DNA of 58,831 nucleotides from Thermoanaerobaculia bacterium (GCA_049298815.1 JBAQWH010000652.1:1-58831); one strand, 5' to 3'; shown: positions 13,112-57,269, counted from the stretch's first letter. Numbers and translations are program-made. Notes: a model not told the origin generated them from the sequence alone.

Positions 13112-13187
13112 TGGTAGCGCATACGGGATTCGAACCCGTGTTACCGCCGTGAGAGGGCGGCGTCCTAGACCCCTAGACGAATGCGCC
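13112..13187 (-). tRNA. tRNA-Glu (anticodon CUC), CCA encoded
   Basis: 76-nt cloverleaf folded by hand. Acceptor GGCGCAT/ATGCGCT, anticodon stem CCGCC/GGCGG with loop CUCUCAC, T arm ACGGG-TTCGAAT-CCCGT, 3' ACCA. Confidence 0.9.
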
Positions 13188-13459
13188 AGATTGGCAGGGA
13201 CGCGGAAGATACCGGAGGTAACCTCCACAGTCAAGCGCGGTTAACTCATGGAAAGGCAGGCACATTCCCGCCTCCCCACCCGATGCTGCCGCTGGATGAC
13301 AAGTTTCCGTTTCCGCTCGGTTTCCAGCCACGACACCCTTTGGATGGAAGGGTTTTGCTAGTGACCTTGCTAGTGGCGGGTGGAGCGTTCTCCGCGTCCA
13401 TGCCGACGAGTTATTTGGCACCGACGCTCGCACGGCATGGACGCCGAGTAGACGCGGAC

Positions 13460-14191
13460 CTAGCGAAGCCCAGCCCAATCGACGTTGAGGACCTGCCTCA
13501 GCCGGAACGCCCGAGCGTCACGGATGTGCCTTAGCCGATACGCACCGTTCACCGATCCAACCGGCTGCATCAGAACCGCGAACTGGACGTCCTCGATCGC
13601 AAACTGCCCGCCGATCACCATTCCATCGCGCTTTTCGCCAACGCCACCATCCGCCGTGAGGACCGCTACGCGCAGCACCGAGGTCGGTGAGTCGTTGAGG
13701 TTCGACGTTCCCTGCAAGAGGTAAAGGCCGCAACCATCGGGAAACGCGGTGCGCCCAAAGACAGAAGTCACCCATCCAGCAGGAACGCACCAGCGTTCGC
13801 CGCTTGGAGTCCGGCGAGCGAACGCAAGGTTGATCACCGTCTTCAGCATCCAGCGCTCAACCAATGCGCCGTCGACGCGGTACACGTCGACGCCGCCACG
13901 CTTCCGGGCTCCCCGCGCCCGCATACCTGCGCGATACTTGAAAGCCTTCAGCACTCGGAAGAAGTCCCCGGCGGCGGCATCCAGAGGAGAAAGCAACTCG
14001 TTGTGCCGCTTGCAGAGCACCTTCGCCACCAGCCTCTCCGCGCTGATGGTCGCTGCCCTGCCCCCGAGCGACCTGAGACCGCTGACGACCACCTCGCCTG
14101 TGCCGATGATCGACCGTGAGAGGTAGTGCTCGCGCGACTGGACAGCATCGCAGTCGCCGAGTGCGGCAGCCCAGCAGCGCATGCTGGCCAT
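13460..14191 (-). CDS. hypothetical protein with an HNH-like N-terminal motif
   Basis: 243-aa ORF. C..GDC, SREHYLSRS and CKRHNELLSPLD resemble the Cys/His-Asn pattern of HNH nucleases. Weak motif-only call. Confidence 0.5.
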   Translation of the reverse strand: MASMRCWAAALGDCDAVQSREHYLSRSIIGTGEVVVSGLRSLGGRAATISAERLVAKVLCKRHNELLSPLDAAAGDFFRVLKAFKYRAGMRARGARKRGGVDVYRVDGALVERWMLKTVINLAFARRTPSGERWCVPAGWVTSVFGRTAFPDGCGLYLLQGTSNLNDSPTSVLRVAVLTADGGVGEKRDGMVIGGQFAIEDVQFAVLMQPVGSVNGAYRLRHIRDARAFRLRQVLNVDWAGLR

Positions 14192-14209
14192 GCTACTCGG
14201 TCGGGCGCC

Positions 14210-14455
14210 TCAGAGCGCTTTCGGCGCCGCTTCGAGCACCCCGACCAGTTCCCGAAGTTCGTCGTCTGTAGCTCCACGAAGCCGGGCCTCGTTCACCGCA
14301 ACAACCTCTGAGTAGCGCCATGCGACCATGCGCACTCCCAGACGTATCGGAGCCGGGAAGAGACGCTCGCCGATCCTCATGTAGAGCGGCGCCCCTATCG
14401 GTTGCCCTTTCCGATCCTTGGCGCGGCGGAGCCTGCTCACGCAAAGCATGAACAC
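14210..14455 (-). CDS. AlpA-like HTH regulator/excisionase (putative)
   Basis: FPAPIRLGVRMVAWRYSEVV resembles the AlpA signature G.FP.P..LG.R.V.W...EV. The start codon is uncertain. Confidence 0.45.
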   Translation of the reverse strand: MFMLCVSRLRRAKDRKGQPIGAPLYMRIGERLFPAPIRLGVRMVAWRYSEVVAVNEARLRGATDDELRELVGVLEAAPKAL

Positions 14456-14473
14456 CGTAGAAGCTCCGTGGAC

Positions 14474-17365
14474 CTACTTGACCCCGTCTCTGAGATCCTG
14501 AACGTGTGCAGTCTTCATCACCGTTGTGCTGGCGGTGATCGTTGCATCGGTGTAGGTCACAGCGGTTAGGCCGATTGCTGCCCGTGCCTCGTCCAGAGCC
14601 GACCGGAGATCGGCGATGTCTATTCTTCGTATCAACGTTCCGGAAGCGATCGAATTCGTGTACGACGCGGCGCCCAGCCCCTTCGCCGCGCGCATCGCAT
14701 TGACCGCCTTCCGGAGTTGCGTGATGTGTGCCGCCCTGATGATTCCGCCGATGGTCAGCGGATCATCAGTGAACAGGATGGTCGTCGCCACGTCGATGGT
14801 GCTGAACGCGGAGGATGCACCGCTCACCAGTGCGCGCACTTTGTAGAGGTAGGTCGTGTCAGGACTCAACCCTATGTCCGTGGTTTCCGAACCATTGACG
14901 GTCTTCAGACTGGCGTACTCGGTGTTGCCAGTGCTCCGGAAGATTTCGTAGCCAGTTGCCCCGATGACTCCAGTCCACGCAAGGCTCACCGCCGTCGTGT
15001 TGATTGCTGTCGCGGAGAACCCAGCGGGCGCTGCGAGAACGGTGGCCGTCGAGTCCACTGACGTCACACTCGACGCCGAGGCGTCCGTCGCGGTTAGCCG
15101 GAACGTGAAGAGGCCCGGCGCGTCCGGTGTGAAGGTCGGATTGCGGACTGTCGCAGAAGAGAGGTTCGCGGTGGAATCGACCGGGCGGCGAATCACAGTC
15201 CATTGCCATGAGGTCGCTCTCCGGGGCGAGGTGTCCAGCTGCCTCGTGGCGAGTACCGGGCCGGTTGTCAGGTCTATCGTAGCGACGTCTGCGAGGGCGG
15301 CTTTTCCGACTCGGATCTTGTTATTGCTCGAATCGGCGATGAAGACGTTCCCGCTGATGTCGGTTGCTACTCCGCTGGGATCTCGAAACCGCGCTGCGCT
15401 TCCCGGCCCGTCCTCACTCCCGTGAGTTCCCACAAGACCCGCGAGCGTGGTGACCTCTCCCGATGGGCTGATCTTCCGGATCGTGCTGTTGGCCTTATCG
15501 GTAACGTAGACATTCCCGCCGCTGTCGGTTGCCACTGCGTTCGGTCTGTGGAACCGCGCCGCGCTCCCCACACCGTCGGCGCTCCCGTCGGCTCCCGCAA
15601 GACCCGCGAGCGTGGTGACCTCTCCCGATGGGCTGATCTTCCGGATCGCACTCGCCTGATCGGCGACGTAAACGTATCCGCTGCTGTCCGTTGCCACTCC
15701 GCTTGGAGAGCTGAACCGCGCTGCGCTCCCAATGCCGTCCGCACTCCCGTCGGCTCCCGCAAGACCCGCGAGCGTGGTTACCTCTCCCGCTGGGCTGATC
15801 TTCCGGATCGTCTTGTTCCATGTGTCGGCGACGTAGACGTTCGGGTTCGCGCCGCCGTCAGTTGCTATTCCGATCGGAACGTTGAACCGAGCTGCGCTTC
15901 CCGCCCCATCGGCACTCCCTGAGACTCCCGCAAGACCCGCCAGCGTCGTGACAGTTCCGCCCGGCGTGATCTTCCGGACGGCGTGATTTCCCTGATCGGC
16001 AACGTAGATGTTGCCGCTGATGTCGGTTGCCACTCCGCATGGATAGTTGAAGCGCGCTCCGCTTCCGTCCCCGTCGGCACTTCCAAAGACTCCCACAAGA
16101 CCTGCCAGTGTGGAGACGACTCCCACTGGCGTGATCTTGCGGATCGTGTGGTTGTACATATCGGAGACATAGACGTTCCCGCTGCTATCGGTTGCCACTC
16201 CCCACGGATTGTTGAACCGCGCCGCGCTCCTCACGTCGTCGGTACTACCGATGCTTGGCGCAAGACCCGCGAGCGTGGTGACCTCTGCCGCTGGGGTGAT
16301 CTTTCGGATCTTATTGTTGCCCTGATCGGCAACGTAGATGTTCCCGCTGCTGTCGGTTGCCACTTGGCTCGGAGAGGCAAACCGCGCGGCGCTCCCCACA
16401 CCGTCGGCACTCCCATAATATTGTGACCCCGCCAGAGTCGTGACCTGTCCGTCTGGGGTGATCTTTCGGATCTTTTGGTTGAACGTATCACCCACATAGA
16501 CGTTCCCGCCGCTGTCGGTTGCGACTCCCCACGGCTGGGAGAATCGAGCCGCGCTCCCTGCGCCGTCGGCGGCTCCCCCGATAAACGACGCAAACCCGGC
16601 CAGTGTAGTGACCTCTCCCGTCGGCGTGATCTTCCGAATCGTATTGTTGACTTGATCGGCAACGTAAACGTTCCCGCCGCTGTCGGTTGCCACTCCGATC
16701 GGGTTGTAGAAACGCGCCGCGCTCCCTATCCCGTCCGCACTCCCGGCGGCTCCCGCAAGACCCGCGAGGGTGGTTACCTCTCCCGCTGGGCTGATCTTCC
16801 GGATCGTATTGTTGCGCCGATCGGCAATGTAGACGTTTCCTCTGCTGTCGGTTGCCACTCCGCTCGGTAGGGAGAACCGCGCCGCGCTCGCTATCCCGTC
16901 CGCACTCCCGGCGGCTCCCGCAAGCCCCGCGAGGGTGGTTACCTCTCCCGCTGGGCTGATCTTCCGGATCGTATGATTGAACTCATCGGCGACATATACG
17001 TTTCCGCTACTATCGGTCGCCAGCCCGAAAGGAAAGTCGAACCGCGCAATGCTCCCCGTCCCGTCGGCATTTCCGGCGTTTCCGGCCAGACCTGCCAGCG
17101 TGGTGACCGCCCCAGAAGGGGTAATCTTCCGGATCGTATGGTTTCGCGTATCCGCGACATAGACGTTTCCGCTGCCGTCGACTGCCACTCCGCTCGCAGA
17201 GCGAAACCGCGCAGCGCTCCCCGTCCCGTCCTCAAATCCTCCCCCCCCTTCCGGACCGGCGAAGGTCGTAAAGGTCAGAGCCTGACCCAACATGGCCGGC
17301 GGAGTCGAGAGGAATGCAAATACAACCAGAACTTCCGCGAAACTTCGCTTCAGGAGAAAAGACAT
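14474..17365 (-). CDS. secreted NHL-repeat protein with a C-terminal fibronectin-III-like domain
   Basis: The start was moved to MSFLLKRSFAEVLVVFAFL (signal-like). There are twelve GNVYVAD..N.TIRKI.P.G.VTTLAG units, then FSATAINTTAVSLAWTGVIGATGYEIFR (Fn3-like). Confidence 0.85.
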   Translation of the reverse strand: MSFLLKRSFAEVLVVFAFLSTPPAMLGQALTFTTFAGPEGGGGFEDGTGSAARFRSASGVAVDGSGNVYVADTRNHTIRKITPSGAVTTLAGLAGNAGNADGTGSIARFDFPFGLATDSSGNVYVADEFNHTIRKISPAGEVTTLAGLAGAAGSADGIASAARFSLPSGVATDSRGNVYIADRRNNTIRKISPAGEVTTLAGLAGAAGSADGIGSAARFYNPIGVATDSGGNVYVADQVNNTIRKITPTGEVTTLAGFASFIGGAADGAGSAARFSQPWGVATDSGGNVYVGDTFNQKIRKITPDGQVTTLAGSQYYGSADGVGSAARFASPSQVATDSSGNIYVADQGNNKIRKITPAAEVTTLAGLAPSIGSTDDVRSAARFNNPWGVATDSSGNVYVSDMYNHTIRKITPVGVVSTLAGLVGVFGSADGDGSGARFNYPCGVATDISGNIYVADQGNHAVRKITPGGTVTTLAGLAGVSGSADGAGSAARFNVPIGIATDGGANPNVYVADTWNKTIRKISPAGEVTTLAGLAGADGSADGIGSAARFSSPSGVATDSSGYVYVADQASAIRKISPSGEVTTLAGLAGADGSADGVGSAARFHRPNAVATDSGGNVYVTDKANSTIRKISPSGEVTTLAGLVGTHGSEDGPGSAARFRDPSGVATDISGNVFIADSSNNKIRVGKAALADVATIDLTTGPVLATRQLDTSPRRATSWQWTVIRRPVDSTANLSSATVRNPTFTPDAPGLFTFRLTATDASASSVTSVDSTATVLAAPAGFSATAINTTAVSLAWTGVIGATGYEIFRSTGNTEYASLKTVNGSETTDIGLSPDTTYLYKVRALVSGASSAFSTIDVATTILFTDDPLTIGGIIRAAHITQLRKAVNAMRAAKGLGAASYTNSIASGTLIRRIDIADLRSALDEARAAIGLTAVTYTDATITASTTVMKTAHVQDLRDGVK
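15302..17221 (-). repeat. twelve tandem NHL-coding units (about 57-59 codons each)
   Basis: The periodic protein repeat is visible in the translation. The DNA units are related but diverged. Confidence 0.8.
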
Positions 17366-17502
17366 GGATCGCCTTTCAAACAAACGAACGAAAAGGCCGC
17401 AAGCTGTTTTCACTATATCTCTAACTGGAGTTGACCCCGTTTACGTGGACATCTGACTATCAGGGAGAGCCACGATTCCGACGGTCTCCTCGGCCTCCCC
17501 TC

Positions 17503-17724
17503 ATGTCAATGCTCCGAGCCTTCGCAGGCGATCCACCGGAGCCGATGACGAGGGAGGACTACGAGCGCGTGCAGCGGAGGGTGCGAGCCTCTTTCAAAGG
17601 CGACGTGCTCGTCGACCGAGCTGACGTACTACTCCTGCTCGATGAGATCCGCTGGGTGAAGCGACGCCTACGTCGGGTAGAGCACGTGATCGAGCCGCTC
17701 GTCGAGGCGATCACCCACCGGTAG
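17503..17724 (+). CDS. small hypothetical protein, paralog of 48777-49001
   Basis: MSMLRAFAGDPPEPMTREDYERVQRRV...IEPLVEAITHR parallels MTILGALAGEPPEPMTRTDFERVQMRM...IEPLVEAITMSI. Confidence 0.5.
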   Translation: MSMLRAFAGDPPEPMTREDYERVQRRVRASFKGDVLVDRADVLLLLDEIRWVKRRLRRVEHVIEPLVEAITHR

Positions 17725-17773
17725 CGGGCAGAACATCAAACATCGTCGACATCGAGCACCGCGTGAGCGCACC

Positions 17774-18655
17774 TCACTTCGTGCTCTCCTCGTATGCCTT
17801 GCGCAGCAGCTCCCGAAGCAGCGGCGCATGCTTCTGGACGTCGTTCTTCCCCAACCTGATGCGGTAGCGACCCCACTGGCTGTCGTAGTCCATGACGTCC
17901 AAGCCAGCTTCCTCCAGAAGGTGCTGCGTCTCGTCTGAGCGTTCGAGACGGGGCTCAAGCCGTACCCAGTCCTTCTTGGGCCGGAAGAGCACAAAGTTGT
18001 TGGGCTGCCCATTCCGCGCTAGGCCGATGTAGAACTTGTTGTACTTCGGTCCGAGCTGGGGGTCGAGTTCACGCACGATCGAGACGAGCGAGTCCGTCGC
18101 TTCCAGCGTCGTCTTCCCAGCCCGACGTTCCCAGTAGGCTCGGTCCGTCGTCTCCTGTACTTCCTCGTCCTCGTCGACCAGCCCGAGCTTCATCTCGTTC
18201 AAGACCGTGGTGAACACCAGCGAGACGTTGTCGCCGATGCGGTACGCCTGCATCTGGATCGCCACCAGAGGAATGAACCCGTTGAAGAGGCCGATGACGT
18301 TCAGGAAGCGGCTCGTGATCACCTCGGCCACGATGACAGCCGTGTGGTCGTACTGCGGGTATCTCTTCCGCTCGATGTCCCAATACTCGATTGCCCGAAT
18401 GATGTGGGACTCGTCGGTCTTACCGAGCTGGATTTCGATCTCGTACCGGTGCTTGCTCTCTGCATCCTGACAGAGGAGATCGAGCCTTCCGGCCTGCGGG
18501 TGTGTTCGCTGTCGATCTCGGACGACGAGTTCGCCGAGTCCGAGAAGAGATGGATCTTCGGCGATCCGTTCCTCCACCCACCGCTCGTTCAGCTCCGTGT
18601 GGTTCGCGAAATTGACGCGTTCAGGCTTGACGTACTTGATAGCCATTTTTGTCAT
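17774..18655 (-). CDS. PD-(D/E)xK-like (NucS/DUF91-like) nuclease-fold protein with a C-terminal extension
   Basis: GRLDLLCQD...RYEIEIQLGK core. The start was chosen at MTKMAIKY. Motif-level call only. Confidence 0.65.
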   Translation of the reverse strand: MTKMAIKYVKPERVNFANHTELNERWVEERIAEDPSLLGLGELVVRDRQRTHPQAGRLDLLCQDAESKHRYEIEIQLGKTDESHIIRAIEYWDIERKRYPQYDHTAVIVAEVITSRFLNVIGLFNGFIPLVAIQMQAYRIGDNVSLVFTTVLNEMKLGLVDEDEEVQETTDRAYWERRAGKTTLEATDSLVSIVRELDPQLGPKYNKFYIGLARNGQPNNFVLFRPKKDWVRLEPRLERSDETQHLLEEAGLDVMDYDSQWGRYRIRLGKNDVQKHAPLLRELLRKAYEESTK

Positions 18656-18733
18656 CGTACGTGACCGCCCTAGCATCGTGGTGCGGTCGGATGAGGGTCA
18701 TGAACGATAAGGACATATGAGCGGGATGCTCGC

Positions 18734-19609
18734 TCACGTTGCTCCAACCAAGCGGGCACGCAGATGCGCGTTGCGCCGTTCGAGCGATAGCACGGCAATG
18801 ATCAGAGCGAAAATCGCAGCTAGACCGAGCACGATCAGGATCGCCGCTCCCGTCGCCATCTGCATCAGCCGGACGGTTGTCCGATTTTGGAGTTCCGCCA
18901 CGAAGACGGCTGTCTTCAGCGTGTGGTAGGCGTTGATTGCGTCGATCAGTCTGGTGGGGTCTTCTTTTTCGGCAGCTTTGATAACTGCCCACAATCCATC
19001 GAGGAACTCATCCCGTTGTTCGTCGTCGAGAGGGGCGAGCCATCCCGTTAGGATGTCTTCATTCTCGCCTTGGAAATACTTCTTGAATTTCTCGGGGATC
19101 GTGGAAGCTACTGCTTCCTGAGCTGTCTTACTCTCCGACGTGGTGGCGATCGCGCGCTTTACTTGATCGTATGTGACCTCAGAGTCGTCCGAGAGATTGT
19201 TGAAGAAAAACACCCCTAGTGCTGCGGTGACGCTGAGAAGCACAATCATGATCCACGCTAGAAAGCGCGTCGCAGGGAAGAGGAACTTCTGTTCGAGGCG
19301 ACTCAGCGGATCGCTTACGACGGCCTCCGCAACGAGCGCTGGTGACGTCTGCTTGACTGGCTCGATCGGTTCGAGAGACGGTCTCGCGGCGACCGTGTGA
19401 CCGACGACTTGTTGTTCTGCCGAGGGTTCTACGGGAACGAAGAACGTACGCAGCTCCGCGACCTCGCCCGCAGGATGCCACTCCCCGGTGTTCGGATTAA
19501 GGATCGGGTACTCACGCCGGATCTTTCCGCTGCGGACCCACTGCGTCAGAACTTCCAGACTAGGTGCGGTGTACTTCTTACCTTTCACGTCGATGAGCCA
19601 AGCGTCCAT
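18734..19609 (-). CDS. GYF_2-like N-terminal domain membrane protein
   Basis: The start was moved to MDAWLIDVKGKKY, which follows an AGGGAGG RBS. W...GP..L..W...G.I-type GYF-like motif and two hydrophobic helices (FLAWIMIVLLSVTAALGVFFF, GAAILIVLGLAAIFALIIAVL). Confidence 0.65.
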   Translation of the reverse strand: MDAWLIDVKGKKYTAPSLEVLTQWVRSGKIRREYPILNPNTGEWHPAGEVAELRTFFVPVEPSAEQQVVGHTVAARPSLEPIEPVKQTSPALVAEAVVSDPLSRLEQKFLFPATRFLAWIMIVLLSVTAALGVFFFNNLSDDSEVTYDQVKRAIATTSESKTAQEAVASTIPEKFKKYFQGENEDILTGWLAPLDDEQRDEFLDGLWAVIKAAEKEDPTRLIDAINAYHTLKTAVFVAELQNRTTVRLMQMATGAAILIVLGLAAIFALIIAVLSLERRNAHLRARLVGAT

Positions 19610-19939
19610 CTGCCCTCCCTTGCTGATCCCCTCAGACGGCAAACGCGGCGGACCCAACCGACGCCCTTGAGGTGGTGCGCATCACCCTACAAGCGATCTT
19701 GGAAAGAGCTATGAGCAATGTCACTCGGCGGTGTTCGACTTAGCGCCCGAGGGTGACCGCTCGCTACCGCTGGAGCAGCTCCCACGGTCCCCCGCTCTGC
19801 GACTGCCCGGCGTTCCTCACTTCGCTCCAGACGGTGCTCATGCCATAGGGGGCCGTCGCGCATCTCGCGACGATCCCTTCGAGGTTCGAGGCGACGGTGG
19901 ATGCCGAACGGGAGCCGTGCGCGAAGGCAAACCTGCGGC

Positions 19940-21049: not shown

Positions 21050-21089
21050 AGCTTGTTCCTCCTCGAATTCGGGCAGACAGCCGGGGCTG

Positions 21090-21275: not shown

Positions 21276-21357
21276 TCCCTACTCCTCGGAGACGTCGTCC
21301 TCGATTTCTTGATTACCTGCCCGCCGGTTCCATGAAGGAGGGCTCGTCCACGGCGAC

Positions 21358-48654: not shown

Positions 48655-48776
48655 TTCGAAATGAGGAGGACGGGACGACCCGTCCTCCTCGCGCGGAATC
48701 CTGCTCGCGTCGGGGGCTGATGGTAGGCGGCGTATCACAACCGACAAGGGGATATCGCTCGGCCTACGCTGGTGCC

Positions 48777-49001: not shown

Positions 49002-49405
49002 CGATGAGGACCCTCAGCAGACGCATTCCGAACGTGTAGGAGGCACGATTCAGATCGACACGACCGCCGCCATGCCTCGGCATCACTCGTTCCGCAGCGC
49101 GGCCTAGAAGCCGTGCACTTCAGCCGCGATGTGCGGATGGCGATAGCGTGGTTGACAGCGTGAACCTCGACGTCCCGCATCCCTCACCCTCCCGAACGCA
49201 CAACCGTATCGGTCGCGGAGTTCGACCGAATCGGGTAGGACGTTCTCGGCCAAAAGCAGCTCGTGCTCGGCGGCATCAAGCTGGACGGATAACCGTGCGA
49301 GAGGTGTGGCCTCGGCTGTCATGGCGACGCTGTTAGTCGTGACACGCGGCGACCGCCGTATCAGATCGTAAGCTGCGCAGTTGCCCGGCGTAGTCCGCGC
49401 GAAGC

Positions 49406-49438
49406 GACGCCCGGCGGGGCAGCAGCCTGCCGGGCGTC
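49406..49438 (-). terminator. strong GC hairpin immediately after the stop of 49445-50473
   Basis: GACGCCCGGC/GCCGGGCGTC perfect 10-bp arms, extendable by about 3 bp. No U-tract follows, so terminator function is assumed only from position. Confidence 0.4.
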
Positions 49439-49444
49439 AGACAA

Positions 49445-50473: not shown

Positions 50474-51126
50474 CCTTTGCTCCTTGCCGACAACGTGACG
50501 GCTGTTTCCGAGTGATCGGCGATCTCCGTACGAATCGACGGAGCGACATGGCGGTACAGGAACCGGTCGAACGCTTCGTTGCCGAACGTCGTGCGTGCCG
50601 CACTCAGGAGATCGGCAGCGGCGGCACAGATCTGCGGCTTCAACCGGCCCAAGTCGGCGCGACCGCGGGCCTGCCGCTGAAGTTGACCGGAGTAGTTCAT
50701 GAGTGCAATGTATGGCGCGGCCGCAGCATCCAACGTAACCCAAAACTGCGCAAAGTCCCATCCCGCCGCCTCAATTGCGGCGCGGTGCCGATTGCGCATG
50801 AGCTGGTGTGGCGCGGCGTTGTCCAATATGAGGCTTGTGACAAGCTCCACTGGGAGAAACAGCTCCGGCTCACGCGATCCATCGAGCGGTGTGAATCCGG
50901 CAGGGCGGGCTGGAGCGCCGTGGGTTCGAGCGCGTCGAGCGGCACGCTGCACTGGGTCAACGCGTTTGGCTATTCGTTCCTCAGCGGTCCATTGCCACGC
51001 CGCCTTTTCTGAATGCTGGGGTGGCGCGGCGTAAGCGGCGCTGCCGAGGGATGCCACGAGAACGGTTAGTAGTACGGCCGAGAGAGTTCGATACAAGGTA
51101 TCCTCCTTCGCCTGTGAATTGATCAA
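50464..51126 (-). CDS. secreted hypothetical protein
   Basis: Signal-like LSAVLLTVLVASLGSAAYA. Its stop overlaps the downstream gene start by 10 nt. Confidence 0.65.
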   Translation of the reverse strand: MINSQAKEDTLYRTLSAVLLTVLVASLGSAAYAAPPQHSEKAAWQWTAEERIAKRVDPVQRAARRARTHGAPARPAGFTPLDGSREPELFLPVELVTSLILDNAAPHQLMRNRHRAAIEAAGWDFAQFWVTLDAAAAPYIALMNYSGQLQRQARGRADLGRLKPQICAAAADLLSAARTTFGNEAFDRFLYRHVAPSIRTEIADHSETAVTLSARSKGCR

Positions 51127-51255
51127 TTCTACGGCGGCTCAGTCGCGGCTTACAGAGTCACGTGCGACGGCGTGTCGCAGCGTAGGAAGTTCGGTTCAGG
51201 TAGGGCTGGCCCTGGCGCTCGTCACGCATGGTTTCAATGGCACGTAGCGTTGTAT

Positions 51256-51446
51256 CAGTGCCAATGCGGTGATGACAGTGCCACAGGGCAGGATAGGCCG
51301 CGCCGATGCATTTGTCCGCTAAGTGGTGGCGGCGGCGCTGCTGGTGTGCTGATGCGACATGGCCCTCCGCACCCGTCTGTTCAGGTTCCAGTGCCAAGTA
51401 GCCAGACAGCAGTGCCAAATACGCCGCGGTGATAGGTGCAGTGCCG
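51256..51446 (+). repeat. iteron-like cluster, five copies of CAGTGCC(A/G)
   Basis: Copies at 51256, 51276, 51389, 51410 and 51439. Two copies are followed by GCGGTGAT(G)A. The cluster sits in a roughly 0.65 kb stretch without a convincing ORF. Confidence 0.5.
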
Positions 51447-51524
51447 CTGAGTCTCTGGCTGCTTCGCGGTCCGGCGCCGCGTGTCTGAACACCGCCGGGG
51501 TACGAACCGTCGGACCATTAGTGA

Positions 51525-51758
51525 AGGCGGACTATTGGCCGTGTACAGCAGCGACTCGCCGCGAGAACGTGGCAGAAGACGAACGACGACCTGATCCTCG
51601 ATTTTCGGCACGCATACGAGCGCCGGGGCGTTCTCACGCGCGAAGCGTTGCAAACCGTGGGCGGCTCAGCGTGCTGGCAGACGTACGGAAGAAGGTTCGA
51701 AGGAGGACATCAGCAGGCGCTGGCGATCGCCTACGCGTCCGACATCGAGGCGGCGTAG
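51525..51758 (+). pseudogene. start-less fragment resembling a homing-endonuclease-associated (HNH_repeat-like) module
   Basis: Translation WQKTNDDLILDFRHAYERRGVLTREALQTVGGSACWQTYGRRFEGGHQQALAIAY. There is no ATG, GTG or plausible start after the upstream stop. Confidence 0.3.
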
Positions 51759-52097
51759 TAGCGGCTGTTCGCCTCACTCGGCGATCACCTCGCAGTTGAA
51801 GAGCGAGGAGCCGAGGACTGGCTGGTCAACGGTCACCTCCTCGTCGGGGTGAAGGTCGCGTTCCCTGAGACCCGGTTCCGCAGCTTGCGGTGGAGGTTCG
51901 AGTTCAACAACAGCCAGATCCCCGAGGTCGTCATCGGTCTCTGCTTCGCACCCCACCGGGCGTGCAGCACGTCGAGTCATTCGTATTCAACACGTGGAGG
52001 TTCAAGACCGCCATCAGGACGGTGTTCCCGGCGCTCGACCGCAAGTCATGGCCCGCGCACTTCGCGCCGAAGACAATCGAGGAGCTGGTCAAGGCTC

Positions 52098-52946
52098 TCA
52101 GTTACCGTTCGTATCACGGATCGAAAAGAGCAGAGGACCTGCTGATCGCGAGCGACGTCCAGCGCGTCCACGAAGGTGACTTACGAGCCGATCCAGCTCT
52201 TCAGGTGCAAGGCATCCGGTGAGCGACCGCACCGTCCTCGCGTTTGGATGCGGGAGCAGCACGACGATTCGCTCGCACTGAGCCAAGACGAACGGCTCCG
52301 ACACCCGCCCGGCCGAGACGTTGACGATCGTCCTCAGCGCGTCGGCTGCAATGCTGCCCAGCGCCACGATGACGGCAGCACCGGACGATTCGAGCACGCG
52401 CGTCAGGTAAAGACGCGCGCACTCCGAGACGGCTTCGCGGACGCCATGCTCGCCCCTACTCTTGCAGTGGACAAGCTCCGTCAACGCGTAGTCGACTCCG
52501 GGGACCGCCTCGCGTTCGAGCAGCTCTTCGGCCCGCTTCTTCACTGCCGACCAGAACGCGTTCGCTTTGCCGTGCGAGCCGTCGGTCAGCAGCGCGCGGT
52601 TACCGCCGACGACCCACCCGCGCTGACCGTCGCCGAAGCGATGCGTGAAGAAGTCGGACACGACTGCGGCGTCCCAGTCAGCGGTCGGGTACTCGGCATC
52701 AGGCTCCCCGACCCTTGAAGCCTGAGCCAGAGCCGGGTTCGACGAGATGAACAAGATCGGCGCGCTGGCGAGGTCGCCGGACCACGGCTCCGGCACGTGA
52801 AAGTCATGGGGTGCCACCGCTTGAGCAGCGACAACCTGATGGCAGGGATGGTTCGACGAGGCTCGTGCCACCGGGACGTTGACGCAGCGCGCGATCTCAA
52901 TGAGGAGAGAAGCCACGCGTGCATTGTGCCCGACCCGGTACGACAC
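52098..52946 (-). CDS. uracil-DNA glycosylase superfamily-like protein (tentative)
   Basis: VPEPWSGDL...ILFISSNP, ELVHCKS and LLPHPNAR resemble UDG family motifs A and B. Confidence 0.55.
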   Translation of the reverse strand: MSYRVGHNARVASLLIEIARCVNVPVARASSNHPCHQVVAAQAVAPHDFHVPEPWSGDLASAPILFISSNPALAQASRVGEPDAEYPTADWDAAVVSDFFTHRFGDGQRGWVVGGNRALLTDGSHGKANAFWSAVKKRAEELLEREAVPGVDYALTELVHCKSRGEHGVREAVSECARLYLTRVLESSGAAVIVALGSIAADALRTIVNVSAGRVSEPFVLAQCERIVVLLPHPNARTVRSLTGCLAPEELDRLVSHLRGRAGRRSRSAGPLLFSIRDTNGN

Positions 52947-53204
52947 GCGCTCACCTGTCGTTCGCGCTGGGTCTCAACGGCGCGTTCTAAGGCGCCCAGA
53001 GCCGCGACGAGCGCGAACACGACGCGCTGCCTGCATCGCTCGATCTTCATGCGTCAGAAGACCGCTATCGACGTCCCTGAGCGAGCTATAATCCCTGATC
53101 GAAACGTGAAGAGACAGTCCTGATCGGACTGCGCCAACCGGTGACTGATTCCGGTGGTACTCGGTCGTAACGACCGCACGTGCTTCTGAAAAGGAGAACC
53201 AGTC

Positions 53205-53480
53205 ATGTCGCGCAACGGCCACTCACTTCTCATCTCCATCGTGCATCCCGTCGATCCCGACCTCGTCGTCGGCTGGGACGAGTTCCTGACGAAGCTCGAC
53301 ACGTATGTCTGCCCGGAGGCGCCATCCGTCTCGTTCGTGGTGAACTTCGTCGGCGCCCGCGAGGGCGTGCGCCACGTCCGCATTGACGCGTTCATCCGTC
53401 GAGTTCTCCGCTCGCTGGGCATCACCCGACCGCAGTGCCTGCCGGGATTGTTCACGACGAGGAATGTGAGGTGGATGTGA
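53205..53480 (+). CDS. hypothetical protein, 91 aa
   Basis: AAAGGAGAA RBS before the ATG. First gene of a coupled three-gene set. Confidence 0.55.
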   Translation: MSRNGHSLLISIVHPVDPDLVVGWDEFLTKLDTYVCPEAPSVSFVVNFVGAREGVRHVRIDAFIRRVLRSLGITRPQCLPGLFTTRNVRWM

Positions 53481-53893
53481 GCGCCCCAGCCGACACGAAC
53501 ACGATCACCGTCGAGATTGACGGCATCGTCGTCGTAGGGGTCGTCGAGCAAGTGGACACGTGGGACTTCTCGATCTCAATCGCGAGTCCCTTCATCGGCC
53601 TCACAACTTCGCTCGGCGGGCCGAGGTGGCTGCCTCCTATGCCCAGAGCGCTCGCTGAGGAACGACTGCGCGATGCGCTCTTCTGGCAGTACCACGCCTG
53701 CACGTACCTGATTCAGGAACGCGCCGAGATCGCCGTCAAGATCCGCGCGTGGGACGAACATGAGCGTGGGCTCGAAGCGAGTCACCACGATGCACCCGCA
53801 CGTGTCGCCGCTGCTCGACGCGAGCTGCGGAAGAGGTTCAAACAGGGCGACAAGCAGACGACGGATGCGGAGGTCTGCCATGACGGACTGTGA
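53477..53893 (+). CDS. hypothetical protein, paralog of 53880-54449
   Basis: The GTG overlaps the upstream stop (GTGA). ITVEIDGIVVVGVVEQV, then a helical tail RRELRKRFKQGD. Confidence 0.5.
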   Translation: MSAPADTNTITVEIDGIVVVGVVEQVDTWDFSISIASPFIGLTTSLGGPRWLPPMPRALAEERLRDALFWQYHACTYLIQERAEIAVKIRAWDEHERGLEASHHDAPARVAAARRELRKRFKQGDKQTTDAEVCHDGL

Positions 53894-54449
53894 GCGCATA
53901 GAGATCGAGGTCGATGGCGTCATCGTCGTCGGTGAGGTCCCGGTGCGCATCCCGCGCCGGATCAACGTTCGCCTCGTCGTGCCCTTCGGCATTCTGCGCG
54001 CCGACGTGTGTGTGCCGTTGTTCGGCGCCTCGTTCGCTGACATGACCTCGGGCCAGGGCGACGAGGTCGCGCGGTCGCTTCTCCTCGGGCTCTACCGCAA
54101 GGCCGTTCTCTTCGATCGACATCGGAACGAACTCGCGCAACGGTGGGCCGACACCGAGCAACGCCTTGCCGGGCTCGATCGTGAAGACCGGGATGCGACT
54201 CAGCGACTGAACGAACAGCGTCGGCGGCTCCGGGCGCGATTCAGAGCCGGAGAAATCCCGGAGAGGTCCTACCAGCTCGCGCTTCGCGAACTTCGCAGTC
54301 GACGCGAGTCGTTCGAGGAGCGGAGGCGGAAGGTGGTCGAGGAGTTCATGAGCAACCCGCCGTGGGACAAGCGCGACGGCGGGCGCGGCGTCGACCTCGG
54401 ACAAGTGGTCGAGTTCCTCGAATCAACGGCCGATGTGACGGGTCGCTGA
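53880..54449 (+). CDS. hypothetical protein, paralog of 53477-53893
   Basis: The ATG lies 14 nt inside the upstream gene. IEIEVDGVIVVGEVPV, then a coiled coil RRRLRARFRAGE. Confidence 0.55.
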   Translation: MTDCERIEIEVDGVIVVGEVPVRIPRRINVRLVVPFGILRADVCVPLFGASFADMTSGQGDEVARSLLLGLYRKAVLFDRHRNELAQRWADTEQRLAGLDREDRDATQRLNEQRRRLRARFRAGEIPERSYQLALRELRSRRESFEERRRKVVEEFMSNPPWDKRDGGRGVDLGQVVEFLESTADVTGR

Positions 54450-54481
54450 ATGTTACGGAACCGTGAACGATCCCCGATGCG

Positions 54482-54520
54482 CGGACCCTCTAAGGAAATT
54501 GTTCCCTTAGTACTGGAGGT
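54482..54520 (+). promoter_or_regulatory. reiterated operator/promoter-like motif, copy 3
   Basis: CGGACCCTCTAAGGAAATTGTTCCCTTA, 65 nt upstream of the proposed GTG start of the Xis-like gene. Confidence 0.5.
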
Positions 54521-54584
54521 GCCGAATTCATCGAAGAACAACCGCCCCCACCCGCTCCCGCCGCAGTCACCAGCCAAGTCGAAG

Positions 54585-54944
54585 GTGCTCCAGTTCCCTT
54601 GCGATCAGGAACCGGACGGCCTCGACAACGTCAACGCCGGATTGACGCATCTCCGCACCGCTCTCGCTGAGTATCACGACGCGCTCAGAGATCTCGTCTG
54701 CCTCACCTCCATTCTCCTTCATCGGACGACAGACACGACCCACATCACGATCGAAGAAGCAGCTCGTTACCAGATGGTCTGTACGAAAACGATCAGAAAC
54801 CGGATCAAGCAGGGGAAGCTCACGCTTGAGGTGATCCCCGGCACCAACCGCTCCGGCATTCCGGTCAAGCAGCTCTCCAGCGGATGGGTCGACATGAATC
54901 GCGCCAAGGCGATTCTGCGGCGTAGGGCGGCGGTCAATGGGTAA
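54585..54944 (+). CDS. excisionase-like HTH protein (putative Xis)
   Basis: ITIEEAARYQMVCTKTIRNRIKQGKL HTH. It ends 8 nt inside the integrase gene. The start is uncertain (the track ORF begins at 54450, across the motif). Confidence 0.5.
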   Translation: MLQFPCDQEPDGLDNVNAGLTHLRTALAEYHDALRDLVCLTSILLHRTTDTTHITIEEAARYQMVCTKTIRNRIKQGKLTLEVIPGTNRSGIPVKQLSSGWVDMNRAKAILRRRAAVNG

Positions 54945-56250
54945 GCCCGCGAAACCGCCACAACCGCGTGAAGGAACCTCGAACGTCGTTCAATGGCCGA
55001 AGGGCACGGGTCCGTTCTACATCCAGCCGTTCATCACTCACCCGCCGTTCTGCATCTGCGACTGGTGCAAGAAGAAAAGGCAAACAGCCGACGAGTGGTC
55101 CCAGCCGTTCCGGCAATGGATCAACCGCAAGTCGAAGTTCCCCTACGACAAAATGCGGTCGGTCGCATACTCGGACGAGGTTGTCCGCGAAGAGGAACGC
55201 CTGCTGGTCGAAGCGGTCGAACGCTCCCGACGTAACCGGGAGGCTCTCGGCGCAGCGGTGTCCTTCACGACGTTGTGCAAGGCGTACCGCGAGCATCAAA
55301 TCGAGAAGGGCAAGCGATACGACAAGGATCAGTATCGGATCGACCTGCTCGAAGAGAAGTTCGGCGAACGAGATGCTGTTTCCATCAACCTCGACGATGC
55401 CGACGATCTTGCTGAGGAACTTCGTCGTGATCGAGGTGTTGGGCCGCAGACGATCAACCGCTACCTCACTACCCTCGTCGCCATTCTCAACTTCGGCAAG
55501 ACGAAGAGGAAGATCGCGACCCACGCGCTTGACGGCTTGAAGAAAGAGGAGGTCAGACGTCCGGGGCGACCGAGAACGTTCAGTCGCTCGCAGATCGAGA
55601 TCCTCTTCGGCGCTGCGATGGATGCGTATGAGCTGGAGCAAGCCGAAAAAGGACTGCGCCTCGGCGGGAAGGCTGGTAAGAACACCGTGATGCGCGGCTC
55701 GGTCGTTCCGCTGAGGGGAATCTGTTTGATTGCCTACCGGACGCTGATGCGTCCGAACAACAATCTCGGTCTCCTATGGGAAGAGCTGCACATCGACGAG
55801 GTCGCCCGGAAGAGGCACTTCGAGCTGAAGAAGCACAAAAACAGCTCGAAAGGCATCGAGGCTCGTGGGCCGCTCTCCCCCTCGCTGATGGAGTATCTGT
55901 TGTCGATTCGACCAGAGGGCAAACCGACTGGACTAGTTCATCCCAGCCCAGAGACTGGCAAGCCGTACGTCAACATTCGCCACCAGTGGAAACGGCTGAT
56001 TGAAATCGCGAACGGGTTGCTCGCAGAGAATGAGCAGATAACCGACGAGATCGACTTCTACAACCTCCGGCACACCGGCGCGAGCGAGCTGGTGGCGAAG
56101 GGCGCGGACCCGGTGATGATCGTACGCATGATGGGCGACACGTCGCTCGCGACCGTCATGAAGCATTACTTTGACAGCTCGCTGGAGCACATGCAGGAGG
56201 TCGTTGAGCGGTGGGATTCGGTACCGGCATCCGCCATCACCGTTCAGTGA
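54937..56250 (+). CDS. int: tyrosine integrase
   Basis: 437 aa. NLRHTGASELV (HxxR box) and MGDTSLATVMKHY (catalytic Tyr). It lies 0.9 kb from the displaced tRNA fragment. Confidence 0.9.
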   Translation: MGKPAKPPQPREGTSNVVQWPKGTGPFYIQPFITHPPFCICDWCKKKRQTADEWSQPFRQWINRKSKFPYDKMRSVAYSDEVVREEERLLVEAVERSRRNREALGAAVSFTTLCKAYREHQIEKGKRYDKDQYRIDLLEEKFGERDAVSINLDDADDLAEELRRDRGVGPQTINRYLTTLVAILNFGKTKRKIATHALDGLKKEEVRRPGRPRTFSRSQIEILFGAAMDAYELEQAEKGLRLGGKAGKNTVMRGSVVPLRGICLIAYRTLMRPNNNLGLLWEELHIDEVARKRHFELKKHKNSSKGIEARGPLSPSLMEYLLSIRPEGKPTGLVHPSPETGKPYVNIRHQWKRLIEIANGLLAENEQITDEIDFYNLRHTGASELVAKGADPVMIVRMMGDTSLATVMKHYFDSSLEHMQEVVERWDSVPASAITVQ

Positions 56251-56344
56251 CGCGTCACGCTGGTCGGCAACGTCGTCTTGTGAATCCACGCTGCGAGCCG
56301 TCGCACTCCGGCTATCGTCCTCAGCAACCATAGGATCGCTGCGC

Positions 56345-57064
56345 ATGACCTTCTCACTCGAAGACTACATAGACGGAACGGCTGCCAACGCCCGTCGGTC
56401 GCTTGCGACGTACCCGGATCACGTCGCTGTCATCCGCCAGATTGATGAAGCGTTTGCGGTTCTGCTCGACCATGTAACCGGCAGAAACGATCACGCCACC
56501 GTCTTTGCAGCGATGTCGCACGCCGACTTCTTGGCAGCGACACGACTCGCGCTCGGGGGCGAACTACCGGCGAGTCTTGCAGCCGCGCGGTCGTGTGTCG
56601 AGGATGCTCTATACGGTTTCTTCATCCATCGTCACCCCGAACTGATGAAGGTTTGGGCCTCGCGGCACGAAAGCGACGAAGCAAAGAGCGCAGTTCGCAA
56701 GAACTTCAAGTACGCCCCGATGTTGGAAGACTTGCGGAAGTATCTCCAGAAGGTCGGCGATCAGGTCGACGTCGCGTATCAGGCCACCATTGACCTCGGG
56801 GCTCATCCGAACGTTCTGAAGCTGTTCATGAATCTCAAAGCCGACCCGTCGGGTGGCTACGAATGGCAGTACGTCAACCTCGACAAATTGGATGTTGGAA
56901 TGGCTTTGCGTGGAGTCGCCTTCGCTGCACTCGCCGCGCTGAACACATTCAAAGAGGTATGGCCAATCACATTTGGAAGCACAGCAGCGGGCAGGACGCT
57001 GCAAGACATTCACGCTGCGTTCGTCGCCCTGCCGGACATCTCAGACGAAGAGCCGAGAAGCTAA
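56345..57064 (+). CDS. hypothetical protein, 239 aa
   Basis: The start was moved to MTFSLEDYIDG. Helical, with no recognised motif. Confidence 0.55.
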   Translation: MTFSLEDYIDGTAANARRSLATYPDHVAVIRQIDEAFAVLLDHVTGRNDHATVFAAMSHADFLAATRLALGGELPASLAAARSCVEDALYGFFIHRHPELMKVWASRHESDEAKSAVRKNFKYAPMLEDLRKYLQKVGDQVDVAYQATIDLGAHPNVLKLFMNLKADPSGGYEWQYVNLDKLDVGMALRGVAFAALAALNTFKEVWPITFGSTAAGRTLQDIHAAFVALPDISDEEPRS

Positions 57065-57148
57065 CGTGAACGGTGCGCCTGCGGACCGCCAAGCTGCTAG
57101 GAAGACTGCTAGCGGTCGCTGTTTTGTCCAACAAGAATGGGGATGACA

Positions 57149-57269
57149 GCGCCGTGAGAGGGCGGCGTCCTGGACCCCTAGACGAATGCGCCAGTTTGGC
57201 AGGAACGCGGAAGATACCGGAGGCTTCCTCCGCGGTCAAGGGCGGCTAACGGCTGGGTGGCAGCGCTCA
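57149..57269 (-). repeat. displaced copy of tRNA-Glu nt 1-43 plus about 75 nt of upstream leader
   Basis: 57149-57191 matches 13145-13187 at 42 of 43 positions. The next 31 nt match at 29 of 31, then the similarity decays. Confidence 0.85.

What the first reader, a model, noticed from the sequence alone, without database searches (positions are those of the whole stretch)
13145..57269. About 44 kb island bounded by tRNA-Glu and a displaced copy of its 5' half plus leader, rather than its 3' end
57149-57191 repeats tRNA nt 1-43 (42/43 identical to 13145-13187). The similarity continues about 75 nt into the upstream leader: the first 31 nt match 29/31, then it decays. The leader includes a GGAGG-NNN-CCTCC hairpin whose stem is conserved while the loop differs (TAA vs CTT). 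An integrase (54937-56250) with an Xis-like gene lies just inside the right copy, and an AlpA-like gene lies 1 kb inside the left copy. Almost every gene between the copies is defence- or mobility-related. tRNA-targeting elements normally duplicate the 3' part of the gene. Here the 5' part and the promoter-side flank are duplicated and diverged, which suggests either an element that carries its own tRNA 5' half and leader, or an old tRNA-Glu duplication used as a recombination scaffold.
Basis: partly seen in the sequence, partly recalled or inferred. Interest (0 to 1): 0.6.

Follow-up and report, generated by a model that had tools for sequence, protein, structure and literature searches.

The report
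Reverse-polarity tRNA-Glu integrative defence island
A 44-kb mobile defence island sits in the anticodon loop of the only tRNA-Glu(CTC) gene and, unlike most such islands, brings its own promoter and front half of the tRNA, a rare but already described way of inserting.

Summary
The right copy is 57150-57192, one base off the coordinates given. A 125-nt block (tRNA-Glu(CTC) nt 1-43 plus about 82 nt upstream) occurs at 13145-13269 and 57150-57274. The upstream "leader" is the tRNA's sigma-70-type promoter, and the hairpin lies in its spacer. The repeat ends in the anticodon stem. The hexamer TGCTAG occurs on the + strand only four times in 58.8 kb, as two pairs just inside each end of the island. 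These look like arm-type integrase sites. The integrase belongs to a Thermoanaerobaculia family that normally lies convergent with an intact tRNA (the classical, 3'-half-carrying layout). Its nearest relatives (50-62% identity) all abut a tRNA-Glu 5' half with no 3' half. A second complete island with the same layout is in another genus (G095). One metagenome contig shows P arm, core, 5' half, promoter and P' arm contiguous. In both complete islands the intact tRNA has T21 and the displaced stump has C21, the commoner allele in relatives. Best reading: an integrative element whose attP carries the tRNA 5' half plus promoter. This reversed geometry is rare but published (Zhao & Williams 2002; pTN3).

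The parts
13112..13187 (-). Intact tRNA-Glu(CTC), the only copy in the MAG. Under the model it is a hybrid: the 3' half (nt 40-76) is chromosomal and the 5' half (nt 1-32) comes from the element.
   Evidence: ARAGORN; Rfam RF00005, 60.4 bits; single copy in G000.
13144..13160 (-). attL core: the anticodon stem-loop (loop 13149-13155, CTCTCAC on the tRNA strand). This is the inferred crossover region.
   Evidence: The repeat block begins at 13145, which is tRNA nt 43. The boundary falls within nt 39-43 in L100, L101, L102, G052, G095 and L123.
13188..13270 (-). Element-borne copy of the tRNA-Glu promoter and leader: -35 TTGACT at 13229-13234, -10 TATCTT at 13206-13211. The GGAGGnnnCCTCC hairpin lies in the 17-nt spacer.
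   Evidence: Promoter scan. The same promoter architecture is found upstream of tRNA-Glu(CTC) in 13 other genera of the family.
13356..13373 (+). P' arm-type direct repeat TGCTAG-N6-TGCTAG, 169 nt beyond the tRNA 5' end.
   Evidence: One of only two matches in the window, with 0.00 expected by chance. All four + strand TGCTAG hexamers are in these two pairs. The same motif sits at the same 169-nt spacing in G095 and L123.
14213..14455 (-). AlpA-like small DNA-binding protein near the integrase-distal end.
   Evidence: PF05930, E = 1.1e-5.
14474..44670 (.). Cargo, mostly anti-phage defence. It holds an NHL-repeat protein, Mrr (22720-23634), a type I R-M with fused M-S (23645-26611) and R (27682-30690) enclosing a PDC-M05 MNT/HEPN pair, an ankyrin protein, a GmrSD_N/NsnA-like protein plus a HEPN-like protein, a small invertase-like tyrosine recombinase (35118-35738), an ImmA/IrrE plus XRE pair, and an EVE-NOV_C protein.
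   Evidence: Pfam; PADLOC; NCBIfam for the small recombinase.
45359..54521 (+). Element backbone. A 41-nt operator-like motif (GCGGACCCTnTAAGGAAAaaGTTCCCTTA...) occurs three times, at 45359, 47901 and 54481. Each copy lies directly upstream of a + strand gene: the replication-initiator-like gene (45460-46551), an excisionase-like HTH gene (47937-48383) and the xis-like/int operon.
   Evidence: Repeat family D16; sequence context; PHROG replication initiation hits; TIGR01764/HTH_17 weak hits.
54519..54944 (+). Xis-like HTH_17 gene overlapping the start of int. The probable start is GTG 54519, preceded by GGAGG.
   Evidence: Weak HTH_17 hit. A homologous gene sits directly upstream of int in all ten of the fourteen fetched metagenome contigs that were searched. 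Start-site context.
54937..56250 (+). Tyrosine integrase, 437 aa, apparently intact. The invariant residues include R272, R378/H379 and H410/Y411.
   Evidence: PF00589; 15-sequence alignment A1; family tree.
56345..57064 (+). Cargo ORF of unknown function between int and the P arm. This position holds 0 to about 6 kb of variable genes in related elements.
   Evidence: ORF list; phrog_36906, unknown function; comparison with L100, L101 and L102.
57095..57112 (+). P arm-type direct repeat TGCTAG-N6-TGCTAG, 37 nt before the core.
   Evidence: Equivalent pairs occur at the same position in L100, L102, G052, G095 and L123. L101 has TGATAG twice, so both copies changed together.
57150..57192 (-). 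Displaced chromosomal 5' half of tRNA-Glu (nt 1-43). No 3' half precedes it. It carries C at nt 21. The attR core loop is 57154-57160.
   Evidence: The C21 allele is the one found in most relatives.
57193..57275 (-). Original chromosomal tRNA-Glu promoter, now driving only the stump: -35 TTGACC at 57234-57239, -10 TATCTT at 57211-57216.
   Evidence: Promoter scan; alignment with the family's promoters.

Best explanation
The 44,005-bp segment between the two anticodon-loop cores (about 13156 to 57160) is one integrative, non-conjugative genomic island. It has a rep/xis/int backbone and defence cargo.

It inserted by tyrosine-integrase recombination in the anticodon loop of the host's single tRNA-Glu(CTC) gene. 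Its attP is about 285 bp long and reads, in order:
- P arm repeat (TGCTAG x2)
- anticodon-stem/loop core
- tRNA nt 32 to 1
- a complete sigma-70-type tRNA promoter
- 169 nt of spacer
- P' arm repeat (TGCTAG x2)

Integration therefore joins the chromosomal 3' half of the tRNA to an element-borne 5' half and promoter. This makes the intact gene at 13112-13187, now transcribed from island DNA. The original promoter and 5' half are pushed 44 kb away (57150-57275) as a dead stump next to int.

This is the mirror image of the classical arrangement, in which attP carries the tRNA 3' part.

What is shown:
- the repeat and its boundary
- the promoters
- the arm repeats
- the recurrence of this geometry across the integrase clade
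- a contiguous attP-type junction in another sample

What is inferred:
- the exact strand-exchange positions
- that prom_L drives the tRNA
- that the element is still able to excise
For: 1. The repeat block ends at tRNA nt 43, inside the 3' strand of the anticodon stem. The boundary falls within nt 39-43 in six other loci: L100, L101, L102, G052, G095 and L123.

2. Both copies carry a TTGACy-17-TATCTT promoter on the tRNA strand. It matches the promoter conserved upstream of tRNA-Glu(CTC) in 13 other genera.

3. TGCTAG-N6-TGCTAG occurs exactly twice in 58.8 kb, once just inside each end and in the same orientation, with 0.00 expected. The motif is absent near ordinary tRNA-Glu loci of relatives.

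4. The integrase family is tRNA-targeting. Of the 36 loci from representative genomes, about 29 of the 33 with a tRNA match near int have a whole tRNA, or a tRNA part reaching at or near its 3' end, convergent and downstream of int. The window's integrase groups with P0002, P0004 and P0003 (support 99/97), and with P0005 (support 83/88). Every informative contig of that clade shows int followed by a tRNA-Glu 5' half with no 3' half.

5. G095, a different genus, has a complete 18.9-kb island of identical geometry with both arm repeats.

6. L123 shows P repeat, core, 5' half, promoter, 169 nt and P' repeat contiguous. The 169-nt spacing is the same in the window, G095 and L123.

7. In both complete islands the intact tRNA has T21 and the displaced stump has C21. 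C21 is also the allele in most relatives and in the stumps of L100, L102 and G052.

8. The integrase looks intact and its Xis-like partner is conserved.
Against: - No empty site is available. Every genome searched belongs to a different genus, and the flanks are not syntenic.
- Exact-pattern scans for the two promoters found nothing in the metagenome or viral collections.
- The two promoters are about as similar to each other (about 71-75%) as to other genera. Promoter sequence alone therefore does not say which copy is foreign.
- T21 also occurs in three ordinary relatives (G010, G018, G023), so the allele argument is supportive only.
- The G095 island has no integrase of this family. L123 has only an integrase remnant. 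Some copies are therefore decayed, and the window's island could also be immobile.
- The island contains a second small recombinase and may have grown by accretion.
Confidence: 0.85

Rival explanations
1. A classical (3'-half-carrying) element of this integrase family integrated first and was later rearranged. The element-derived tRNA 3' half next to int was deleted or replaced by about 900 bp, and the far junction acquired a 5' half and promoter by duplication or gene conversion. On this view the present layout is a one-off scar.
For: Most family members are classical, with int in the same orientation relative to the tRNA. About 900 bp with an extra ORF lies between int and the stump.
Against: The same layout, with the boundary within nt 39-43, recurs in six other independent sequences from at least two other genera and four other samples. 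It follows an integrase subclade. The conserved P' arm repeat sits 169 nt beyond the tRNA in three loci. A contiguous attP-type junction exists. A private rearrangement does not predict any of this.
Confidence: 0.04
2. An old tandem duplication of the tRNA-Glu gene with its promoter. The right copy decayed to a 5' stump and unrelated islands accumulated between the two copies. The repeats would then serve at most as a homologous-recombination scaffold.
For: Both promoters are of the family's own type and are diverged from one another (71-75%), as old paralogues would be.
Against: - Relatives have a single promoter-bearing tRNA-Glu(CTC).
- The stump ends exactly at the anticodon stem and is preceded by an arm repeat that also occurs at the other end of the island.
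- An integrase whose clade always abuts such stumps lies beside it.
- The stump keeps the ancestral C21 while the functional gene has the variant. This is the opposite of what pseudogene decay predicts.
Confidence: 0.03
3. The geometry arose as in the best explanation, but the island is now a fixed, immobile remnant or a composite of several accreted elements. The integrase would no longer move the whole 44 kb.
For: - Related islands are decayed: G095 lacks the integrase and L123 has only a fragment.
- No transfer genes were detected.
- There is no excision evidence.
Against: Int, its Xis-like partner, both arm repeats and both cores are intact in the window. No internal att-like copies split the island.
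Confidence: 0.3

Closest known systems
[quoted passage not shown] The paper itself was not held. The citation and its gist were checked through PMC1635311 (reference 28) and PMC6563490.
   Same: The element replaces the 5' part of the tRNA gene and leaves a displaced 5' fragment upstream, so the tRNA is no longer expressed from its original promoter. Reviews treat this as rare (PMC6563490: 'considerably less frequent'; PMC8371274: 'very few exceptions').
   Different: - Different phylum (Acidobacteriota, Thermoanaerobaculia), target (tRNA-Glu CTC/TTC) and integrase family.
- The reversal can be placed on a tree here, as a subclade nested among classical relatives that keep the same int-to-core orientation.
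- The element-borne promoter is a recognisable copy of the host family's own tRNA-Glu promoter.
pTN3-like archaeal integrases (Cossu et al. 2017, PMC5495485; review PMC8371274)
   Same: attB is the 5' half of a tRNA gene. A full-length tRNA is reconstituted but separated from its original promoter.
   Different: pTN3 is an SSV-type 'suicidal' integrase whose gene contains attP and is split on integration, and the tRNA is then read from the integrase promoter. Here int stays intact, lies at the other junction, and a dedicated tRNA-type promoter is carried.
Classical tRNA-gene genomic islands at the anticodon-loop sublocation (Williams 2002; Islander, PMC4383910)
   Same: A tyrosine integrase, a symmetric anticodon stem-loop core, an intact tDNA plus a cognate displaced fragment in direct orientation, and an integrase with an RDF-like gene at one end. 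Islander's configuration filter accepts a 5' fragment upstream of the tDNA.
   Different: The displaced piece is the 5' half plus promoter rather than the 3' half, and the integrase lies next to the stump rather than next to the intact tRNA.
tRNA-dependent lysogeny of actinobacteriophages (Guerrero-Bustamante & Hatfull 2024, PMC10865867)
   Same: The host's tRNA supply comes to depend on element DNA after integration into a tRNA gene.
   Different: In those phages the tRNA is not rebuilt at the junction and a separate phage tRNA gene complements it. In the window the tRNA is rebuilt at attL. The G072 locus seen in passing does resemble that system.

Membership tests
tRNA-gene (tDNA) integrative genomic island, Islander definition | Intact tDNA plus a cognate tDNA fragment on the same replicon, in the same orientation, in an allowed configuration (5' fragment upstream or 3' fragment downstream) | tested here: met
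   The tRNA is at 13112-13187 (-). The 5' fragment is at 57150-57192 (-), upstream of the gene on the tRNA strand. The rule is quoted from PMC4383910.
tRNA-gene (tDNA) integrative genomic island, Islander definition | Tyrosine integrase gene inside the interval | tested here: met
   54937-56250: PF00589, conserved catalytic R/R-H/H-Y residues.
tRNA-gene (tDNA) integrative genomic island, Islander definition | Island absent from some related genomes (empty site), or shown to excise | not testable with these tools
   No same-genus genome is held. Pattern scans and the flank-protein look-up found nothing.
Reverse-orientation (5'-distal) tRNA integration (Zhao & Williams 2002 type) | The sequence shared by attP and attB is the 5' part of the tRNA gene, so the displaced fragment is a 5' fragment | tested here: met
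   The block is nt 1-43 plus upstream sequence. There is no 3' half at attR in the window, L100, L101, L102, G052, G095 or L123.
Reverse-orientation (5'-distal) tRNA integration (Zhao & Williams 2002 type) | The element supplies the promoter for the rebuilt tRNA | tested here: inconclusive
   A consensus TTGACT-17-TATCTT promoter of the family's tRNA-Glu type lies in the element-side copy. Transcription was not measured.
Heterobivalent (lambda-type) tyrosine integrase system | Arm-type repeats in both attP arms, distinct from the core sites | tested here: met
   TGCTAG-N6-TGCTAG at 57095 (P arm) and 13356 (P' arm) are the only + strand TGCTAG copies in the window. The pairs are conserved, or changed together, in six related loci. 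Binding was not tested.
Heterobivalent (lambda-type) tyrosine integrase system | Adjacent excisionase / recombination directionality factor | tested here: inconclusive
   An HTH_17-like gene overlaps the int start and is conserved with int in ten homologous contigs. The family hits are weak (E about 0.01).
tRNA-dependent lysogeny | The tRNA is not reconstructed at the junction, and a separate element-borne tRNA gene complements it | tested here: not met
   The tRNA is reconstructed at attL, and there is no other tRNA gene in the island.
SSV/pTN3-type integrase | attP lies inside the integrase gene, which is split on integration | tested here: not met
   int is an uninterrupted 437-codon frame, 900 bp from the core.
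Integrative conjugative element or prophage | Conjugation (relaxase, T4SS) or virion structural genes | tested here: not met
   None was found among about 50 island ORFs scanned with Pfam and ten backbone ORFs scanned with PHROGs. Only a replication-initiator-like gene was found.

The most novel reading that the evidence does not exclude
One Thermoanaerobaculia integrase family may contain all three ways of integrating into a tRNA gene without losing the tRNA:
- classical, with attP carrying the 3' half;
- mirror, with attP carrying the 5' half plus promoter (the window's clade);
- a G072-type element that truncates the host tRNA-Asp and carries a complete variant tRNA-Asp gene beside int.

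If so, att-site polarity switches through intermediates that carry the whole tRNA gene. A mirror element would then take over transcription of the host's only tRNA-Glu(CTC). It would also leave the 3' side of the gene free for other islands, so both sides of one tRNA can be occupied, as seen in this window.
Probability: 0.3. Interest if true: 0.55.

Novelty: new member of a known kind. Interest (0 to 1): 0.35.

Why it matters
Island-finding tools and annotators assume that the 3' end of a tRNA gene marks an island edge. Reverse-polarity islands are missed, or their stumps are misread as pseudogenes.

This locus and its relatives provide three things:
- a well-delimited attP of about 285 bp (two arm repeats, a core and an embedded tRNA promoter);
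- a natural comparison of classical and reversed att sites within one integrase family;
- an example in which a host's only tRNA-Glu(CTC) is presumably transcribed from mobile DNA.

Practically, it sets the exact borders of a 44-kb defence island in an uncultured Acidobacteriota lineage.

Tried and rejected
- **Empty site in relatives.** 40 relatives were searched with each flank. All belong to other genera. Only the tRNA plus promoter matches, and the flank proteins are not syntenic.
- **Exact promoter pattern** (covering both prom_L and prom_R) in metagenome contigs and viral contigs: 0 hits.
- **Exact-protein look-up of the right-flank ORF:** not on record.
- **Using promoter similarity to decide which copy is foreign:** uninformative. 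All pairs are about 70-75% identical.
- **The hairpin as a functional RNA or DNA element.** It lies in the promoter spacer and is not conserved as a hairpin in other genera. Rfam finds nothing. I treat it as incidental.
- **Assembly chimera.** Rejected. Both copies lie on one contig with distinct flanks, the longest exact shared run is 22 nt, and G095 reproduces the layout independently.
- **Several integrase-homologue contigs** (L103, L107-L113) end before the att site and were uninformative.
- **Literature.** Williams 2002 and Zhao & Williams 2002 themselves are not held. Their content is cited through papers that quote them.

Full report
**1. Observation**

The window is the whole 58,831-bp contig C652 of a 775-contig MAG. 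The titles of related records place it in Thermoanaerobaculia, Acidobacteriota. ARAGORN and Rfam find one tRNA, tRNA-Glu(CTC), on the minus strand at 13112-13187. It is the only tRNA-Glu(CTC) in the MAG.

A direct repeat links 13145-13269 with 57150-57274. It is 83% identical ungapped (family D9) and 86% by BLAST, E = 5e-34.

The tRNA part matches at 42 of 43 positions. The single difference is at nt 21 (T on the left, C on the right). The next 31 nt match 29/31, and both copies have the GGAGG-NNN-CCTCC hairpin.

**2. What the 'leader' is**

On the tRNA strand each copy carries a sigma-70-type promoter. The left copy has TTGACT-17-TATCTT (13234 to 13206) and the right copy has TTGACC-17-TATCTT (57239 to 57211). 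The hairpin lies in the 17-nt spacer.

Thirteen other genera of the family have the same architecture upstream of tRNA-Glu(CTC): GGGAAT, GTTAAC-like, CTTGAC, N17, TATCTTCCGCGTCCC. The decay of similarity away from the tRNA therefore follows the constraint pattern of this promoter. It is not a special property of the repeat. The spacer hairpin is not conserved as a hairpin in other genera, and I treat it as incidental.

**3. Where the repeat ends**

The anticodon loop is nt 33-39 (CTCTCAC) and its stem is nt 28-32 paired with nt 40-44. The repeat stops at nt 43, inside the 3' strand of the stem.

At the right copy the preceding sequence (...GGGGATGACAG|CGCC GTGAGAG GGCGG...) is not the tRNA 3' half. 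This is the signature of recombination at the anticodon-loop sublocation. The shared block, however, runs towards the 5' end and the promoter rather than towards the 3' end.

**4. Arm-type sites**

TGCTAG-N6-TGCTAG occurs exactly twice in the window, on the same strand, with 0.00 expected from shuffles:
- at 13356-13373, which is 169 nt beyond the tRNA 5' end and just inside the left end of the island;
- at 57095-57112, which is 37 nt before the right core.

These four hexamers are the only TGCTAG on the + strand in 58.8 kb. Together with the cores they define an attP of about 285 bp. Its order is P repeat, core, tRNA nt 32 to 1, promoter, 169 nt of spacer, P' repeat.

**5. The integrase family**

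The 437-aa integrase (54937-56250) has the conserved catalytic residues (R272, R378/H379, H410/Y411). A Xis-like HTH gene overlaps its start. That gene accompanies int in all ten of the fourteen fetched metagenome contigs that were searched.

Homologues in genomes of the same family (38-45% identity) target tRNA-Asp(GTC), tRNA-Arg(CCG) or tRNA-Glu(CTC). Of the 36 loci from representative genomes, 33 have a tRNA match near int. In about 29 of those, a whole tRNA, or a tRNA part that reaches at or near its 3' end (starting at nt 15-28), lies convergent and downstream of int. This is the classical arrangement, in which the int-proximal arm carries the tRNA 3' part.

The window has int in the same orientation relative to the core, but only nt 43 to 1 follow it.

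**6. The reversed geometry is shared by a clade**

The closest integrases in the 5.8-billion-protein collection are P0002 (62% identity), P0003 (56%) and P0005 (50%). Their contigs (L100, L101, L102) come from three different samples.

Each shows int, then 0.06 to 6.4 kb, then a TGCTAG (or TGATAG) pair, then the core, then a tRNA-Glu 5' half with no 3' half in front of it. Each contig ends inside that 5' half. L101 uses tRNA-Glu(TTC), and both copies of its arm repeat read TGATAG.

In an IQ-TREE tree the window groups with P0002, P0004 and P0003 (support 99/97) and with P0005 (83/88). This group is nested among classical members.

**7. More examples**

A pattern scan of 401 genomes of the class for P repeat plus core found two further genomes.

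- *G095, another genus.* It has a complete island of 18.9 kb on one contig. The layout is: intact tRNA-Glu(CTC) at 4695-4770, promoter, TGCTAGTGATCTTGCTAG at 4939, cargo, TGCTAGTCGCCGTGCTAG at 23573, core, nt 43 to 1, promoter. TGCTAG again occurs only in these two pairs across the 24 kb examined.
- *G052:C712.* It shows an attR with a full 5' half and promoter.

The last metagenome scan found L123. There the P repeat, core, 5' half, promoter, 169 nt and P' repeat are contiguous, next to an integrase remnant that is 72% identical. That is the predicted attP, either as an unintegrated form or as a tandem-array junction.

The distance from the tRNA 5' end to the P' repeat is 169 nt in the window, G095 and L123. 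Ordinary tRNA-Glu loci of eleven relatives lack the motif.

**8. Which copy is foreign**

Under site-specific recombination the copy distal to int (left, 13156-13270) is element DNA, and the copy beside int (right) is the chromosomal one.

One independent hint supports this. In both complete islands (the window and G095) the intact tRNA has T21 and the stump has C21. C21 is also the allele in most relatives and in the stumps of L100, L102 and G052. A decaying pseudogene would be expected to show the reverse. T21 does occur in three ordinary relatives, so this hint is supportive only.

Promoter similarity does not discriminate between the copies. All pairs are about 70-75% identical.

**9. What the island is**

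The backbone (45.3-57.1 kb) contains:
- a replication-initiator-like gene;
- two excisionase-like HTH genes;
- int;
- a 41-nt operator-like motif placed directly upstream of three + strand genes, including xis-int.

No conjugation or virion genes were detected.

The cargo is mostly defence genes:
- Mrr;
- a type I R-M system with fused M-S, enclosing a PDC-M05 MNT/HEPN pair;
- a GmrSD_N/NsnA-like protein;
- an EVE-NOV_C protein;
- an ImmA/XRE pair;
- PDC-S11-like proteins.

The best label is an integrative, probably mobilisable or replicative, defence island.

**10. Comparison with what is known**

Reviews state three relevant points:
[quoted passage not shown] Cossu et al., 2017)' (PMC6563490).
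- Archaeal pTN3-like integrases use the 5' half of a tRNA gene (PMC8371274; PMC5495485).

Islander's configuration filter allows a 5' fragment upstream of the tDNA. Earlier notes of this scan list similar reverse-polarity islands in other phyla. I used those notes only as the lead to the Zhao & Williams citation, which I then verified in two reference lists.

The window is therefore a new, well-delimited member of a rare but described kind. It is not tRNA-dependent lysogeny, because the tRNA is rebuilt. It is not an SSV/pTN3-type system, because int is not split.

**11. Limits**

No empty site, circular junction or transcript evidence could be obtained. Activity of this particular copy is therefore inferred only from its intact int, xis-like gene and att arms. 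Related copies (G095, L123) have lost the integrase.

**Verdict**

Novelty is modest and interest is about 0.35.

Noticed in passing
window 2596-2632, 3116-3152, 10525-10561, 11744-11761 (also 3081-3399 vs 10490-10807, and 2979-3109 vs 12965-13095): The other (3') side of the same tRNA-Glu carries a stack of tRNA 3'-end fragments. Each holds acceptor/T-arm sequence plus a 6-nt trailer and ends in the T-loop. They delimit integrase-less islets, among them a 7.1-kb PAS-histidine-kinase/GGDEF cassette bracketed by about 319-bp repeats that are 96-98% identical. The tRNA is thus occupied on both sides by elements of opposite polarity and different sublocation.
   Followed up: partly
G072:C51 (L037/L060/L072), contig 23816-26875: An integrase of the tRNA-Asp clade is flanked upstream by a complete, promoter-bearing tRNA-Asp with a compensatory anticodon-stem variant (GCTGGC...GCCAGA). 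Downstream, in inverted orientation, lies the 5' half (nt 1-39) plus promoter of the ordinary tRNA-Asp allele. It looks like a truncated host tRNA complemented by an element-borne whole tRNA gene, similar to tRNA-dependent lysogeny, or like an integrase-mediated inversion.
   Followed up: partly
G095:C61:4695-23729 (L120/L121): An 18.9-kb reverse-polarity island has both TGCTAG arm pairs intact but no integrase or Xis of this family. It carries three small invertase-like tyrosine recombinases, one of them 46% identical to window 35118-35738. It may be a decayed element or one mobilised in trans.
   Followed up: partly
L123 (WNFG01001214.1), flipped coordinates 8895-11471: A contiguous attP-type junction (P repeat, core, decaying 5' half, promoter, P' repeat) lies beside a C-terminal integrase remnant and 0.6 kb from a tRNA-Arg(CCG). 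It is either a tandem-array junction or a scar. The right-hand continuation was not analysed.
   Followed up: partly
G005:C38 (L031/L064): One tRNA-Glu-targeting homologue (44% identity) has int followed by a co-directional 3' half (nt 30-76). The core is therefore flipped relative to int. This is a third geometry within the family.
   Followed up: no
window 45359-45399, 47901-47941, 54481-54521: A 41-nt motif with an imperfect palindrome (TAAGGAA...TTCCCTTA) lies directly upstream of the rep-like gene, an excisionase-like gene and the xis-int operon. It is probably a shared operator/promoter. It suggests the Xis-like gene starts at GTG 54519 rather than 54450.
   Followed up: partly
L085/L048 (CAVTGG010000010.1, G135:C10): The tRNA-Asp next to an integrase homologue shows an internal duplication: nt 1-58 are followed directly by nt 16-77. 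This may be a product of aberrant or tandem recombination within the tRNA.
   Followed up: no
window 57938-58147: A small ORF (about 70 aa, MPVRKFRSVEEMNQPVW...) in the right flank is 61-69% identical at protein level to ORFs in four other genera of the family. It has no Pfam or NCBIfam hit, and it is not next to tRNA-Glu in those genomes.
   Followed up: no
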